A stretch of DNA of 64,000 nt from Deltaproteobacteria bacterium (GCA_016703535.1 JADJBV010000001.1:6382270-6446269); one strand, 5' to 3'. Shown: positions 28,700 to 39,852, numbered from the stretch's first letter. Notes: generated by a model from the letters alone, not told the origin. Numbers and translations: made by a program.

Positions 28700-29450
28700 A
28701 GATTACATGGCGGAGGCTCGGAGAGATAAATAGGCTAAGCCAAGGCTCCGAAGGAGGTCAACCAGAGTTGCAGGACTTCAAGCTTCAGCGGACCAGAGAC
28801 CAACGACGACGATGGGATAGCAACCGGGTGGACCAGATCCGAGCGCTGGAAACGGCCAAACCCCCGCAGATCCCGGTGGCCACCAACACCCGCCCTTCGA
28901 CCGGGCAAGGAGCCGCGCCTGCTGCCCGCGGAAGATGGCTTCCACGAAGACCCGCGCCATCGCCGCCAGGCCGTCTGCACGGACCGCCAACAACCCGACC
29001 AACTCCGAAGGCGGAGACAGAACGTACTGCCGAATCGGAACATCGGGGAACACACGCTCCACGAAGTGCGTCGCGACGTCGTCCATCCACCGCGCGCCGC
29101 AGCTCGGGCAGAGGCCGCGCCCTTTGGTCGCTCCGGCCATCCTGGCCTCTCGCGACACTTCCCGCGTCCTGTGGGTCGCACGAAAACGCCAGCGCCCGCT
29201 CCACTTGGCAGTCCGGGCAGCGCAGCCTGACGAAGCCCGCCTCGGGGACACCGCACACCAGGAACCGCTCCACTGCCCGGCCCACGAACTTGGGGATGGG
29301 GACCCCGGCCTCCTTGCTCTGCGCCACTAGCGCCGGCCACCAGCGCGTCACCAGTCGGTGCAGCACGCCCGAGCGCGGATCGCGAGCGGAGTAGCGCCGA
29401 GGACGATCCACGCCAGGCCCGTAGGCCAGCCGCGTGCCCAGCCCCGGTGC
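28700..29450 (-). mobile_element. IS91-family (Y2 rolling-circle) transposase remnant, copy 1: N-terminal Zn-finger part only, degraded
   Basis: ORF 28785..29411 carries FLVCGVPEAGFVRLRCPDCQVERALAFSC (Zn_Tnp_IS91-like) then loses the frame. It shares a near-identical segment with copy 2. Confidence 0.55.
28938..29100. repeat. Direct repeat A (about 165 bp), near-identical to 39548-39715
   Basis: cttcgaccgggcaagg.gccgcgc.tgctgcccgcggaagatggcttc.acgaagacccgcgccatcgcc...aacaacccgaccaactccgaaggcgg.gacagaacgtact seen in both copies. Confidence 0.75.
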
Positions 29451-29803
29451 TCATGGTTCGGACGAGATTCGTCCGGATTTCGCAGGACGTCCGGAATCCG
29501 GACGGACGCGGGTTACCGGTCGCGTGTGCAAGGGCGCGGCCTGCGGGCTCGGGAAGACCTGGGTCGGCCCACCGGCCCGCATCGAAAACGCGTGGCGCTG
29601 GCCGCTGATCGACGCGTCGCAGACCGCGCAAACCCACGCTTCGTCTGGGTCGTCGAAGCTGAGGGCCCCGGGCCGCTGCACCGCAGTGCCTCGCCCTGTG
29701 TTCGGCTGCGGCTCGAGGGCGAACATCGCTCGCCCTCGAGTCTACTCGGTTACTCGATCCCGGACAGCGCGCGCTGCGCCCGAGCCATGGCGAAGGGTAG
29801 CCC

Positions 29804-30166
29804 TTAGGGGACGAAGACCTCGACCCGATCGACCGCGCCGAAGGCCATCACCGAGGCTCCGCCCGGCACGTAGATCCGATCACCAATCGCCGCGGCGCCT
29901 GTCCCGTGCCGGCCGGTGGTCATCGGGCTCAAGCTTGACCACCGCTCGGTCTCAAAGCTCCAAGCCTCGACCGCGTCAAAGACCGCGCTGGCGGCGCCGG
30001 TGTTGCCTTCGCCGCCGAAGACGTAGAGCGCCTCGTTGAGGATCGCGGCGGCGGCGCCTCCTCGAGAGGTCGGCATCGGGGGCCCGGCGCTCCAGGTACC
30101 GGCGGTGGGATCGTAGAGGTCGAGCTGAGCGGTGTGCCCCGTGATGGGTCTCCTTCGGAAAAGGTT
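29804..30166 (-). pseudogene. 3' fragment (about 115 codons) of a Kelch-repeat protein gene truncated at its 5' side
   Basis: Frame reads ...RRRPITGHTAQLDLYDPTAGTWSAGPPMPTSRGGAAAAILNEALYVFGG...GDRIYVPGG. An in-frame stop is at 30167-30169, exactly where GC content drops. Confidence 0.6.
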
Positions 30167-30217
30167 TCAAACACTTCGCCCGTGACATCGGCCGTCCGCC
30201 TCCTTGAAGTTGGGCTC

Positions 30218-31222
30218 ATGGATCTCAATCCGACTCGCCCCACTTTCGACTTCATCCCGATGGGGCCGGGCGCAGGCCCCTTGACGAGTCCCTCGACTTT
30301 CGACGACTCAAGAAGCATGTACATCGAAATGGTGCGGCAGGTCGTCGAGGAGGCGGTTGCTGTTCATGCGGCCGCGGAGAAGAAGACCATCTCCGATGTT
30401 CTGAAGGAAGTTCGCGAGCACATCGACGCAACAGCGAGGGAACATCAGAAGGACGAACCGGCAATCGACTATCAGAATGCGCTGTGTCGGCTTGGCTACC
30501 TCTACCGCCACGCTCCCGCAAACGCGACGTTGTTCGAGCGCGTCCTTCGTGATTGTCCAGACTTCCTGCTCAAGATTAAAGAACGCAACGGAGCGCGGTT
30601 GCACGTGTGCTCGGTTGGCGGGGGACCTGGCACCGAACTCCTTGGGCTCTCGAAGTTCTTACTCAGGCGGCCCGAGCTTGCGCCGAGCAAGATACAGTTC
30701 ACGGTGTTGGATCGGATCCCGCAATGGGCAGAGACCTGGCAGCGCCTGGCCGATGCCGTCGAGGACCAGTTCAAAAAAGCGCCGACGGGCGCCAAGCCGA
30801 GCATTGCTCCCTCGTTCCTGCCCATGGATGTGTGCGATCCGACCTCATACAAGAGCTACGCCTATCATTTCAGCACGGTCGACATTGTGGTCTTCAACTA
30901 CTTGTTCTCGGAGAACAAGACTCGCTTGGCGGCGGCAGCGGAAGCGGCCCGCCACTTGCTCAACTCCAGCCCGGTGGGTGCTTTGTTCCTATTCATCGAT
31001 CGCCACGAAGCAGACGGACAGCTCACAGAGGCCGTGAGAGCAATGATCCCGACGACTCCTCCTTGCACGGCCAACCTGTTTGGAGGGACGATCGATCGGG
31101 ACGAAGACCGGAAGGCGATGGGCGACATGTTGATGGGAGCTTTGGGCAACCCACGAGTGAAGTTCTTCACGGACAACTACCGTGACCCAACGGCTTTTTG
31201 GACGGCGATTCGGCGCACATGA
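30218..31222 (+). CDS. Class I SAM-dependent methyltransferase-like protein (about 334 aa)
   Basis: Rossmann motif I LHVCSVGGGPGTELLGL, acidic beta2 end QFTVLDRI, motif IV DIVVFNYLF. ATG 30218 chosen (alternative 30317). Confidence 0.55.
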   Translation: MDLNPTRPTFDFIPMGPGAGPLTSPSTFDDSRSMYIEMVRQVVEEAVAVHAAAEKKTISDVLKEVREHIDATAREHQKDEPAIDYQNALCRLGYLYRHAPANATLFERVLRDCPDFLLKIKERNGARLHVCSVGGGPGTELLGLSKFLLRRPELAPSKIQFTVLDRIPQWAETWQRLADAVEDQFKKAPTGAKPSIAPSFLPMDVCDPTSYKSYAYHFSTVDIVVFNYLFSENKTRLAAAAEAARHLLNSSPVGALFLFIDRHEADGQLTEAVRAMIPTTPPCTANLFGGTIDRDEDRKAMGDMLMGALGNPRVKFFTDNYRDPTAFWTAIRRT

Positions 31223-37804: not shown

Positions 37805-37871
37805 TGGAGCATTCTAGAGCCCCTAAGGCGGTGGTGCCCAGGCCGGAATCGAATCGCTTGTCCGGTTTGGG

Positions 37872-38438
37872 TCACCTGCAAGCGCGAGCGGTAGCTGGTT
37901 CCTTGAGAAGATCGTCGCGCCGCTGCTTGGCGATCGGCGTCCATTTCGCCAAAAAGCCGGGTAGGTCTTCGTCAAGAAGGACATCAATGCCGACTGAGGA
38001 TGCTCCAATCCCGGCCAACTCGTTCGTGACGCGCGCTGACGCCGAATTTAAAGCCGCTCGCTTGGTTGAGTTCATCTTCGTGACAGTCTTTCCCCACGGT
38101 TCTCCGTTCGGTCCGACCTGGAACAACACAGTCGCCAACACTGGAGCGCCGAGTCGCGCCATGACCGACAGGCTAGCCGCGTCTTTCACAAGACTCGTCG
38201 TCACACCAACCCCTTCAACCTCGAATGCGGCAACCGGGATCCACAACGGAGATTCGGCAGTCGCGCCTCTCAACGCCCAGATCACGTCAATCGCGTAGTT
38301 CCTATCAGTCCCGAACACGTTGAACTCAGGGACGGCATGAAGGTCAAGGTCGACGCCTGCCTGGCAGAGTCGAGCGCAAACCTCGTGCTTCGACATCGCA
38401 AGTTCGCTCAATCCCGCATGTTGACCGAGCGCGTTCAT
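37872..38438 (-). CDS. Small hypothetical protein (175-189 aa), weak Vsr/DUF559-like (PD-(D/E)xK-like) motif
   Basis: YAIDVIW...PVAAFEVEG resembles Y.vDf...laiEvDG. Start 38438 or 38396. The upstream 2/3 of ORF 37872..39263 is high-GC artefact. Confidence 0.35.
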   Translation of the reverse strand: MNALGQHAGLSELAMSKHEVCARLCQAGVDLDLHAVPEFNVFGTDRNYAIDVIWALRGATAESPLWIPVAAFEVEGVGVTTSLVKDAASLSVMARLGAPVLATVLFQVGPNGEPWGKTVTKMNSTKRAALNSASARVTNELAGIGASSVGIDVLLDEDLPGFLAKWTPIAKQRRDDLLKEPATARACR

Positions 38439-38559
38439 CGCTAATGAAGGAGAGCATCCCTCGACCGGTGCAGAGGAAGCAACGGGCCAGAGGCTGGGGC
38501 GAATAGGAAACTCAAGGGTGGTTGCCGGGGCCACCTCCGCTTGGATCGAGCCGCCATAT

Positions 38560-39852
38560 AGGGATACCTCCCCTGGATGGCAGGACCTACTTGAACGCCG
38601 GTGAGGGGTCGAATGGGGGTCTGTGGTGGGGTTGAGGGGCGCTTCCTGGGGCGCAGGACGAGCCTCGGCCTCGCGAGGATGCTCGCCTTCAAGGCCCGGG
38701 GCGGAGCTGTGGTGCTCAGTTCGCGAGTGGGAGAGCTTGTTGCGGCCCGGGCGGGCCGGTGCTCTCCACCGGCACGAACTGGTTTCGACGCAAGGTCCTG
38801 GGGCAGCGGGGGCAGGAATGGCCGTTGACCTCGTAGACGCGGGCCAAGAGCTTCGCCCACGCTTCGCGATACGGCACTGGCGTTGCCGGCTCGAACTTCC
38901 GAGCCCCGAACCACGCGCCTTGCACCGCCACCCAGCCTGCTGGCACCACCTGCGGTCGAAGCCGCGCGGCCGGCGCCAGCACCCCGAAGGCGCGGATCTG
39001 ATGCTGCCGCGGGGGAGGCACCAGCCAGGCCAGGCGCCGGAGCAACGAGAGCGGATGCAGCAGCAGCTCCTGCTGCGTGGTGCGCGTCGGGCGGCGGAGC
39101 GTGAACCGCGCCTGCGCCTCGTCGATGAGCTCGAGCTGGGCCTCCGCGAACGGCGGCCGGGCGGCGTAGCGCACGAGCTGGGCGCGACCGGCGCGGTCGT
39201 CGGCGCCGACCCGCACGCTCGCGTTGACCTCGAAGCGACCTCGGAGCTTCTTCGGCTCCACACTGACGATCCCTACGGCGCACGGGCCGCCGTTGGCCAC
39301 CACGGGTCGTCGGGCCGGCCCTCGGCGCCCTCCTCGAGATACCCATGGCGACGCAGCCACCCCAAAAACCGAAGCTCCACCTCGTCCTCGAGGGCCCCAC
39401 GCTCTCCGGCCGAGGGGCCTTGGTCCTGGCGGAATTCTAGCGTGCCGACGTCCTCCTCCAAGTAGCCGCCGTCGAGCACCCGCACGTGCAGGTGCGGATA
39501 GACCGAAAGCGTCTTCGTGAACCGCTGCACGAACGCCACCGCCCCGCCCTTCGACCGGGCAAGGGGCCGCGCTGCTGCCCGCGGAAGATGGCTTCTACGA
39601 AGACCCGCGCCATCGCCTCCTGGGCGTCGGCACGGGCCGCCAACAACCCGACCAACTCCGAAGGCGGCGACAGAACGTACTACCGAATCGGAGGTAGGCG
39701 TCGATCTCGCCCGCCAGATCCTGGAGCGATCGGCAGGTGCCACGGCGGAGCAGCCGGTCGAGGTGAAAGACGCCGTCCATCAGGCGTCGCCTGCCGGCGA
39801 CTCGGGCGGATACCGGGGGGCGGTCCCGCTTGATTCGCTTCGTCTTGCTCAC
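38560..39852 (-). mobile_element. IS91-family transposase pseudogene, copy 2 (full length but split over three frames)
   Basis: N-terminus MSKTKRIKRDRPP... (39852). Middle AVAFVQRFTKTLSVYPHLHVRVLDGGYLEE (Y2_Tnp HPHxH motif) in a second frame. C-terminal-like WAKLLARVYEV...CPRC in a third frame. Confidence 0.6.
39548..39715. repeat. Direct repeat A', partner of 28938-29100
   Basis: See repeat A. Confidence 0.75.

What the first reader, a model, noticed from the sequence alone, without database searches (positions are those of the whole stretch)
28700..39852. Two degraded IS91-family (rolling-circle, Y2) transposase copies in direct orientation bracket the Kelch fragment and the island; they share a near-identical segment of about 165 bp
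Copy 1 (28700-29450) keeps only the N-terminal Zn-finger region. Copy 2 (38560-39852) is near full length but split across three reading frames, so both are pseudogenes. Segments 28938-29100 and 39548-39715 are almost identical at nucleotide level. IS91-type elements mobilise adjacent DNA by one-ended rolling-circle transposition. The island lies directly 3' of copy 2. The direct repeats could also mediate deletion or inversion of the intervening about 10 kb.
Basis: seen in the sequence. Interest (0 to 1): 0.7.

Follow-up and report, generated by a model that had tools for sequence, protein, structure and literature searches.

The report
Split dead IS91 transposase flanking island
Two broken, complementary pieces of one rolling-circle (IS91/ISCR-type) transposase gene sit on either side of a horizontally acquired 8-kb defence-gene island; this is an ordinary fossil of how the island probably arrived, not an active or new kind of element.

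Summary
The repeat is real: 28889-29039 and 39543-39692 are 141/151 identical, and it is the only large repeat in the window. Profile searches confirm IS91/ISCR-superfamily transposase remnants on the minus strand. They are not "an N-terminal stub plus a near-full-length copy". They are complementary halves. Copy 1 holds residues 1-137 (zinc-binding domain). Copy 2 holds residues 88-417 (HUH/Y catalytic domain) and has no zinc domain. The repeat is exactly the 50-residue overlap. On the coding strand the C-terminal half comes first. Its 3' (oriIS-side) end, fixed at 38498 by two independent loci, abuts the low-GC defence island. The island is followed by a hitch-hiked Kelch gene tail, the 5' hairpin region, and the N-terminal half. 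Both halves are pseudogenes: copy 1 has a 52-nt insertion, and copy 2 has a stop codon, two 1-nt deletions and a 45-nt deletion. The DNA outside both breakpoints has no transposase signal. Copy 1's breakpoint coincides with a sharp boundary of the neighbouring RNA-ligase module, which meets different DNA in two other metagenomes. Best reading: inner remains of an IS-cargo-IS structure left by rolling-circle read-through or circle capture, later trimmed and decayed. It is ordinary and now immobile. Only rare repeat-mediated deletion remains possible.

The parts
28889..29039 (-). Repeat copy R1: codons 88-137 of the transposase at the 3' edge of copy 1
   Evidence: 141/151 identical to 39543-39692. 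Longest perfect run is 31 bp, 29014-28984.
39543..39692 (-). Repeat copy R2: codons 88-137 at the 5' edge of copy 2. It carries a TAG stop (PIR*YV) and a 1-nt deletion near 39574.
28889..29411 (-). Copy 1 coding remnant, residues 1-137 (Zn_Tnp_IS91 domain), split over two frames by a 52-nt insertion at 29127-29178
   Evidence: Pfam. tblastn with P0002: residues 1-58 at 29351-29178 and 51-137 at 29149-28889. Profile positions 7-156. Insertion mapped against L001.
29412..29510 (-). 5' leader and terIS-side region of copy 1, with CGTCCGGA/TCCGGACG hairpins (29455-29504). The exact 5' boundary is not mapped.
   Evidence: Relatives L006/L007 and L008 carry the same kind of repeats upstream of the start. 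DNA fold z=-2.18 here and z=-3.67 in L008. Inverted repeat 29470-29482/29492-29504.
29511..30165 (-). High-GC DNA next to the terIS side: a spacer with an 11-bp perfect hairpin (29712-29740), then the 3' tail of a Kelch-repeat gene (29804 to about 30165, about 118 codons, 5'-truncated)
   Evidence: Pfam Kelch_1 E=9.6e-13. The reading frame extends to about 30165, and GC3 is 0.84, unlike the island.
30166..38497 (.). Low-GC cargo island (GC 0.56-0.62, GC3 0.61-0.71) of defence-type genes: MTase-like, DUF1848, ThiC-like radical SAM, ThsA-type SIR2-SLOG, PDC-M19B, PDC-M19A (DUF488) and two unknowns
   Evidence: Composition. Pfam. PADLOC.
38498..38715 (-). 3' untranslated region and oriIS-side end of copy 2, ending ...CTTGAGTTTCCTATTCGCC at 38498
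   Evidence: Similarity to L002 and to L011 stops at exactly this base, and all three flanks differ beyond it. The terminal motif CTTG-N5/6-CCTAT is conserved in relatives.
38716..39692 (-). Copy 2 coding remnant, residues 88-417 (Y2_Tnp, HUH motif HLH, RY tyrosine), in three frames. Lesions: a stop codon, 1-nt deletions near 39574 and 39275, and a 45-nt in-frame deletion near 38793.
   Evidence: Pfam. tblastn. Profile positions 113-439. Lesions mapped against L001 and L002.
39693..40304 (.). Non-IS DNA abutting copy 2's 5' breakpoint: 612 bp with a 296-bp inverted-repeat element at 39962-40257 and no transposase signal
   Evidence: Profile search negative in all six frames. Repeats. No Pfam hit.
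28644..28888 (-). Start of the neighbouring RNA-ligase/kinase unit, beginning TGTTGGTGGCC on the transposase strand. Its edge at 28888 is copy 1's 3' breakpoint.
   Evidence: L013 and L014 are 96% identical to the window from exactly 28888 downward and 99.9% identical to each other, but each joins different DNA upstream. No transposase signal.

Best explanation
The two fragments are the inner remains of two directly repeated copies of one lineage of a divergent IS91/ISCR-superfamily rolling-circle element. The copies once flanked a horizontally acquired block of DNA in the order IS-cargo-IS. Read on the minus strand, the order is: residues 88-417; the intact oriIS-side end (38498); 8.3 kb of low-GC defence genes; 0.65 kb of high-GC DNA with a Kelch gene tail; the terIS-side hairpin region; residues 1-137. 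An IS-cargo-IS structure can arise in two ways. An IS91-type element may fail to terminate at terIS and copy a whole circular donor. Alternatively, a circular IS-plus-cargo molecule may recombine with a resident copy. The Kelch tail next to terIS is the expected hitch-hiker from an earlier read-through. Later the outer part of each copy was lost. The downstream copy was cut after residue 137, exactly at the defined edge of the RNA-ligase module. The upstream copy was cut before residue 88. Both remnants then accumulated inactivating mutations. Shown: the family, the complementary coverage, the strand and order, the 3' end, the lesions, the foreign composition of the cargo and the sharp boundary at 28888. 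Inferred: the original IS-cargo-IS state and the order of events. Today the structure cannot transpose by itself. The only remaining activity is rare homologous recombination between the 151-bp repeats (93% identical, 31-bp longest perfect run). That would delete 10.65 kb and leave a solo 151-bp scar.
For: Family: Pfam Zn_Tnp_IS91 and Y2_Tnp. The rebuilt protein is 67-70% identical over 91-93% of its length to intact 411-423 aa transposases that carry both domains. Complementary coverage is shown by tblastn and a 97-sequence profile. The contig L001 reads without a break across the point where the window's halves part. The two copies are sister sequences: they share derived states that L001 and L005 lack, and their 10 differences split 4/5/1 between them. 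The 3' end at 38498 is defined by two independent loci. The cargo has GC3 0.61-0.71, against 0.84-0.88 for host genes and 0.84-0.91 for the transposase pieces. The 5' hairpin region is shared with relatives. Literature: terIS lies upstream of tnpA and oriIS downstream; failed termination co-mobilises DNA beyond terIS, up to whole donor plasmids and about 40 kb; circular intermediates exist (PMC13181058). The boundary at 28888 occurs in three contexts.
Against: No genome with two intact flanking copies, and no empty site, could be found. The source genome is absent from the species-representative collection and close strains are known only from 1-2 kb contigs. Two separate trimming events are needed. 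The tetranucleotide next to the oriIS end in the window (CCAG) does not look like the family's usual target, and differs from those in L002 (CTCG) and L011 (GTCG). So the IS-island junction may not be an original insertion junction. The 5' (terIS) boundary is not mapped.
Confidence: 0.5

Rival explanations
1. A single circular molecule (one intact IS plus the cargo) integrated by homologous recombination into a pre-existing 151-bp solo remnant of the same IS in the chromosome. This Campbell-type integration gives the permuted halves and the flanking direct repeats in one step.
For: It predicts the observed order (C-half, cargo, N-half) and predicts that both breakpoints coincide with the ends of the repeat. 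IS91-type elements form circular intermediates (PMC13181058). The differences in the overlap are clustered rather than interspersed: 3 runs among 9 assignable sites against about 5.4 expected (my count). This hints at a mosaic.
Against: It needs a 151-bp remnant that was itself trimmed on both sides. L013 and L014 have no such remnant next to the same boundary. The clustering runs opposite to the simple prediction: copy 1 is derived in the first part and copy 2 in the second. The paper detected no insertion of double-stranded circles.
Confidence: 0.15
2. One linear piece slightly longer than unit length, cut from a circular or tandemly repeated IS-plus-cargo molecule, was inserted by illegitimate end joining. 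The 151-bp terminal redundancy became the direct repeats.
For: A single event explains both truncations and the permutation. No transposase remnants lie outside the block.
Against: The right-hand junction coincides to the base with a boundary used in two other contexts, which a random insertion point would not do. Rolling-circle copies should start at oriIS, not inside the gene. No microhomology is visible at the junctions.
Confidence: 0.1
3. One reading: two independently degraded copies, with copy 2 (near full length) having mobilised the island lying 3' of it by one-ended rolling-circle transposition.
For: The island does abut the 3' end of copy 2, and the family is known for one-ended transposition.
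Against: Copy 2 lacks residues 1-87 and the zinc domain. One-ended transposition carries DNA beyond terIS (5' of tnpA), not beyond oriIS. The copies are sister sequences with complementary coverage.
Confidence: 0.1
4. The arrangement is an assembly artefact, or the shared segment is a generic genomic repeat unrelated to transposases.
For: None found. Reads are not available to check the assembly.
Against: The repeat lies in frame within transposase codons 88-137 in both copies and occurs nowhere else in the window. A 151-bp repeat at 93% identity is unlikely to mislead an assembler.
Confidence: 0.03

Closest known systems
IS91 family insertion sequences (IS91, IS801, IS1294)
   Same: N-terminal zinc-binding domain plus a Y2/HUH catalytic domain. 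Two different ends without terminal inverted repeats. A hairpin-rich 5' (terIS-side) region and a conserved 3' (oriIS-side) terminus. Association with adjacent cargo.
   Different: The rebuilt protein scores below NCBIfam's curated IS91 cut-off (88.5 vs 125 bits). No orf121-like gene is present. The tetranucleotide next to the 3' end in the window is CCAG, not CTTG/GTTC. Both copies are truncated and inactive.
ISCR elements (e.g. ISCR2-type transposases on resistance plasmids)
   Same: Best NCBIfam match is ISCR clade Ia (197 bits). Identity to plasmid-borne ISCR/IS91 transposases is 35-36% over 91-95% of the length. Like ISCRs, the element is linked to accessory genes captured from elsewhere.
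   Different: The score is far below the ISCR clade cut-off (925 bits). The cargo is defence genes in a high-GC environmental bacterium, not resistance genes. A terIS-like hairpin region is present.
Products of one-ended transposition from a circular donor (donor flanked by two direct IS copies)
   Same: Cargo is bounded by an oriIS end on one side and a terIS side on the other, with the two IS pieces in direct orientation. A hitch-hiked gene tail lies next to terIS.
   Different: Neither flanking copy is complete. The outer 87 codons plus terIS of one copy are missing, and the outer 280 codons plus oriIS of the other. The original state is therefore inferred, not seen.
Genomic islands flanked by direct repeats (excisable by recombination)
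   Same: A 10.65-kb block is bounded by 151-bp direct repeats. Recombination between them would excise a circle.
   Different: The repeats are pieces of a pseudogene, not att sites. No integrase or recombinase is encoded in the block.

Membership tests
IS91/ISCR superfamily transposase | N-terminal zinc-binding domain (Pfam Zn_Tnp_IS91, CxxC...CxxC) | tested here: met
   Copy 1: PF14319 E=1.8e-5 and 0.021 on the two frames. CPDC and CPSC motifs are present. Profile positions 7-156, E=7e-29 and 6e-35. The domain is absent from copy 2.
IS91/ISCR superfamily transposase | Y2_Tnp catalytic domain with HUH motif and catalytic tyrosine | tested here: met
   Copy 2: PF04986 E=1.7e-16. YPHLHV (HUH) and VRYAARPP are present. 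Only one Tyr is seen in this motif, as in its intact relatives P0001-P0004. Activity was not tested.
IS91 family (NCBIfam NF033538 equivalog) | Score above the curated cut-off of 125 bits | tested here: not met
   88.5 bits for the rebuilt protein and 94.6 bits for the intact relative P0002. This is a divergent branch, not IS91 proper.
ISCR clade Ia (NCBIfam NF052416) | Score above the curated cut-off of 925 bits | tested here: not met
   197 bits, confined to the N-terminal half.
IS91 family element | Defined oriIS-side 3' end conserved among copies at different sites | tested here: met
   The window, L002 and L011 share ...CTTGA(G/A)TTTCCTATTCGCC and diverge immediately after window 38498. 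A related motif occurs in L003, L007 and L008.
IS91 family element | Subterminal palindrome(s) at the ends | tested here: inconclusive
   5' region: hairpins with z=-2.18 (4 of 200 shuffles as good); L008 z=-3.67. 3' region: z=-0.3, not better than shuffles. The exact terIS boundary is not mapped.
IS91 family element | Target tetranucleotide (CTTG/GTTC type) next to oriIS and no target-site duplication | tested here: inconclusive
   Flanks are CCAG (window), CTCG (L002) and GTCG (L011). Duplication cannot be assessed because the outer ends are missing.
IS-cargo-IS product of one-ended transposition / composite structure | Two complete IS copies in direct orientation flanking the cargo | tested here: not met
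   Both copies are truncated on their outer sides and no transposase signal remains outside. The structure is inferred to be a remnant of such a product.
Active mobile element | Intact transposase gene and both ends | tested here: not met
   A stop codon, frameshifts, a 52-nt insertion and a 45-nt deletion are present. No other transposase copy is in the window.

The most novel reading that the evidence does not exclude
The permuted halves are the direct footprint of a circular IS91/ISCR-type intermediate, carrying about 9 kb of defence cargo, that integrated by recombination inside its own transposase gene. Recombination between the 151-bp repeats would then re-excise a circle in which a full-length transposase gene is re-joined. 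This would be a cargo-carrying rolling-circle element that behaves like an integrative island.
Probability: 0.07. Interest if true: 0.55.

Novelty: new member of a known kind. Interest (0 to 1): 0.25.

Why it matters
It documents a divergent, environmental branch of the IS91/ISCR rolling-circle elements physically linked to anti-phage defence genes (ThsA-type SIR2-SLOG and PDC-M19) rather than antibiotic-resistance genes. That supports the idea that this transposition mode also moves defence islands. For this genome it dates the island as an old, now fixed acquisition: each remnant has diverged by about 3% and no working transposase remains. The practical lesson for annotation is that two "degraded copies" can be complementary halves, which changes what can be inferred about how the cargo arrived. 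None of this is surprising to a specialist in mobile elements.

Tried and rejected
(1) Simple insertion of the island into one transposase gene: rejected, because the order on the coding strand is C-half, island, N-half, not N-half first.
(2) Hidden degraded remainders outside the breakpoints: rejected, because a profile of 97 relatives finds nothing in 39693-40420 or 28600-28888 in any frame. A faint DRP..SAR..GV(F/L)H resemblance in the ORF at 39595-39852 did not survive this test.
(3) Copy 1 as an internally deleted element that keeps its own oriIS end. The motif CTTG-N6-CCTAT at 28730-28744 is rare (2 hits against 0.14 expected). However, the 245-bp tail has no similarity to copy 2's tail (score 21 against a shuffle mean of 22). 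It also belongs to the RNA-ligase unit found without any IS in L013 and L014, where the motif reads CCTGT. Judged most likely a chance resemblance.
(4) The TCCGGACGAA tandem cluster at 40305-40370 as copy 2's terIS: not accepted. It is conserved with the neighbouring host gene and a sigma54-like promoter in L009, L010 and L011. Its 36-nt perfect identity to L011 keeps an IS origin possible, so this stays unresolved.
(5) HTH_23-Y2_Tnp proteins P0038 and P0039 as a natural N-terminal variant: rejected. They are IS21/IS91 chimeras from an IS21 insertion like the one in L001.
(6) Finding the source genome, an empty site or the island elsewhere. The genome scan found only a 49% relative. The metagenome scan with ThsA found only a 29% relative. 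Plasmid megablast found nothing. Exact look-ups of flank proteins failed. Close strains are known only from 1-2 kb contigs that break at repeats.
(7) tRNA or known RNA at the borders: none. There are no tRNAs and only a sub-threshold Guanidine-II hit inside the island.
(8) A transposase for the RNA-ligase unit in the left 28 kb: none, only host genes, and no inverted copy of its end.

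
Full report
OBSERVATION. A self-comparison of the 64-kb window finds one large repeat, 28879-29039 against 39535-39692, at E=3.7e-58. Its core is 151 bp, 28889-29039 against 39543-39692, with 141/151 identities and one gap. GC content falls from about 0.67 to 0.56-0.62 between about 30.1 and 38.5 kb.

WHAT THE TWO COPIES ARE. Both lie on the minus strand. Pfam finds only the zinc-binding domain (Zn_Tnp_IS91) in copy 1 and only the catalytic domain (Y2_Tnp, E=1.7e-16) in copy 2. 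I joined the N-terminal reading frames of copy 1 to the C-terminal frames of copy 2. The result matches intact 411-423 aa transposases carrying both domains at 67-70% identity over 91-93% of its length.

Mapped on the intact relative P0002:
- Copy 1 covers residues 1-58 (29351-29178) and 51-137 (29149-28889).
- Copy 2 covers residues 88-132 (39691-39539), 136-230 (39548-39264) and 231-417 (39264-38749).

A profile built from 97 full-length relatives gives the same picture. Copy 1 covers profile positions 7-156 and copy 2 covers 113-439. The DNA just outside both breakpoints has no signal in any frame. So the fragments are complementary halves, and the 151-bp repeat is exactly their 50-residue overlap. 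Copy 2 is not near full length, because it lacks the whole zinc domain. A related metagenomic copy (L001, 88-92% nucleotide identity) reads without a break across the point where the window's halves part.

LESIONS. Copy 1 has a 52-nt insertion at 29127-29178. Copy 2 has a TAG stop at about codon 91, 1-nt deletions near 39574 and 39275, and a 45-nt in-frame deletion near 38793. No other transposase piece exists in the window. The element is dead.

ORDER AND ENDS. On the coding strand the order is:
1. C-half (39692-38716).
2. 3' untranslated region (38715-38498).
3. Island.
4. Kelch gene tail and spacer (about 30165-29511).
5. 5' hairpin region (about 29510-29412).
6. N-half (29411-28889).

This order is circularly permuted, so a simple insertion of the island into one gene is excluded.

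The 3' end is fixed at 38498. Two independent loci carry the same 3' region at 80-94% identity: L002 from NCBI GCA_020051655.1 and L011 from JGI 3300056850. Both diverge from the window, and from each other, immediately after ...TTTCCTATTCGCC. A related terminal motif occurs in more distant relatives.

The 5' region carries CGTCCGGA/TCCGGACG hairpins, as in relatives L006/L007 and L008. It folds better than shuffled sequence, with z=-2.2 here and z=-3.7 in L008. Its exact boundary could not be mapped.

According to PMC13181058, terIS lies upstream of tnpA and oriIS downstream. Transposition starts at oriIS, and failure to stop at terIS co-mobilises the DNA beyond terIS. That can include whole donor plasmids and up to about 40 kb. 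Circular intermediates are also formed. The island is therefore on the mobilisable side of copy 1, not of copy 2.

RELATIONSHIP OF THE COPIES. In the overlap, with L001 as outgroup, four differences are derived in copy 1, five in copy 2, and one is ambiguous. Both copies share derived states that L001 and L005 lack. They are sister copies that have each diverged by about 3% since separating, so the event is old. The longest perfect run is 31 bp. That is enough for rare homologous recombination, which would delete 10.65 kb. Direct repeats cannot invert the segment.

CARGO. The genes between the fragments have GC3 of 0.61-0.71. Host genes have 0.84-0.88 and the transposase pieces 0.84-0.91. The cargo encodes:
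- a ThsA-type SIR2-SLOG protein;
- the PDC-M19A/PDC-M19B pair;
- a DUF1848 protein;
- a methyltransferase-like protein;
- a ThiC-like radical-SAM protein;
- two proteins of unknown function.

The Kelch tail (about 118 codons, GC3 0.84) lies next to the terIS side. It looks like DNA picked up in an earlier read-through.

THE BREAKPOINTS. Copy 1's 3' breakpoint (28889|28888) coincides to the base with the edge of the neighbouring unit, which encodes an RNA ligase and an HD/AAA_33 kinase. Two contigs from other samples (L013, L014) are 96% identical to the window from exactly 28888 downward and 99.9% identical to each other. Upstream, each joins different DNA. The truncation of copy 1 was therefore not a random deletion. 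Either that unit has a recombinationally active end, or the site is an integration hot spot. I found no transposase for it in the 28 kb to the left, which holds ordinary host genes, and no inverted copy of its end.

Copy 2's 5' breakpoint abuts 612 bp of non-IS DNA containing a 296-bp inverted-repeat element. Further out, at 40305-40370, lies a tandem TCCGGACGAA cluster. It shares an exact 12-mer with the IS 5' region. However, it is conserved together with the host gene 40496-41359 and a sigma54-like TGGCAC-N5-CTTGAA element in three lineages. I read it as more likely a host enhancer site than a second IS end, but this is unresolved.

EXPLANATION. The best-supported history is an IS-cargo-IS structure, made by one-ended rolling-circle transposition of a circular donor or by capture of a circular IS-plus-cargo molecule. 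The outer parts of both copies were later removed and the inner parts decayed (confidence about 0.5). Three rivals remain:
- Campbell-type integration of one circle into a 151-bp solo remnant (0.15).
- End-joining of a slightly longer-than-unit linear copy (0.1).
This is contradicted by the direction of read-through and by copy 2's missing N-terminus.

I could not obtain an empty site, an intact flanking copy or the island elsewhere. The source genome is not in the species-representative collection. The metagenome scan gave only a 29% ThsA relative. Plasmids hold nothing similar at the nucleotide level. Close strains are known only from 1-2 kb contigs.

COMPARISON WITH KNOWN FAMILIES. The transposase belongs to the IS91/ISCR superfamily by domain content and by its ends, but to a divergent branch. 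It scores 197 bits against ISCR clade Ia (cut-off 925) and 88.5 bits against the IS91 equivalog (cut-off 125). It is 35-36% identical to plasmid-borne ISCR/IS91 transposases. The tetranucleotides next to the 3' end are CCAG in the window, CTCG in L002 and GTCG in L011. The window's does not match the usual CTTG/GTTC type.

VERDICT. This is a genuine but ordinary fossil: a new, inactive member of a known kind of element that marks how a defence island was probably acquired. There is also an unexplained sharp boundary at 28888. Interest 0.25.

Noticed in passing
window 30166-38497: The cargo is a defence-gene set. It holds a ThsA-type SIR2-STALD protein (33723-35132, minus) with no TIR/ThsB partner seen, next to a ThiC-like radical-SAM gene (32671-33747). 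It also holds PDC-M19A (DUF488, 36057-37304) with PDC-M19B (35217-36050), DUF1848 (31198-32142) with a methyltransferase-like gene (30134-31222), and two unknown genes (37151-37804, 37872-38450).
   Followed up: partly
window 40305-40434; L010 1-100; L011 1215-1350: A tandem TCCGGACGAA repeat, including the perfect palindrome TTCGTCCGGACGAA, lies upstream of a sigma54-like YTGGCAC-N5-CTTGAA element and the gene 40496-41359. The layout is conserved in three lineages. The same 12-mer sits in the IS 5' hairpin region (29466-29477). Thirty-six nucleotides are 100% identical between the window and L011, although the adjacent proteins are only 52% identical. Whether this is a host enhancer site or IS-derived DNA is unresolved.
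   Followed up: partly
window 26668-28888; L013, L014: The RNA ligase plus HD/AAA_33 kinase two-gene module has a base-sharp upstream boundary (TGTTGGTGGCC...) that meets three different sequences in three samples. In a 68% relative the module sits in a fixed, unrelated context (L015-L020). It may be a mobile unit or an integration hot spot.
   Followed up: partly
window 39962-40257: A 296-bp element with 68-nt imperfect inverted repeats (74% complementary) and several GGGTCCCGGGACCC palindromes, MITE- or REP-like. A similar TCCCGGGAC motif occurs in the 32 nt upstream of the boundary in L014.
   Followed up: no
window 28730-28744: CTTGGCTTAGCCTAT resembles the IS 3'-terminal motif. The pattern CTTG-N5/6-CCTAT occurs only twice in the window against 0.14 expected. 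It lies inside the RNA-ligase unit and reads CCTGT in L013 and L014, so it is probably a chance resemblance.
   Followed up: yes
L001 969-3371; proteins P0038, P0039: A close relative of this IS is itself interrupted by an IS21-family element (rve plus IstB). This produces chimeric HTH_23-Y2_Tnp open reading frames in other metagenomes.
   Followed up: yes
L005 about 2020-2075: The 3'-terminal motif of a related intact element is duplicated in tandem (aacgggctaattcttcctatcggcc, twice). It may be a footprint of re-initiation or termination at oriIS.
   Followed up: no
L011 8478-9180: Another truncated 3' fragment of the same IS lineage (80-93% identical, ending at the same terminal base) lies about 7 kb downstream of a TCCGGA cluster in the same orientation. 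A homologue of the window's flank gene lies between them.
   Followed up: partly
window 32651-32696 (minus): A sub-threshold Rfam Guanidine-II (mini-ykkC) hit, 28.4 bits against a gathering score of 32, E=0.025, at the 3' end of the ThiC-like gene. Probably chance.
   Followed up: no
window 20979-21076: A short direct repeat with a 45-bp offset (83% identity) inside an ORF of unknown function (20187-21890).
   Followed up: no
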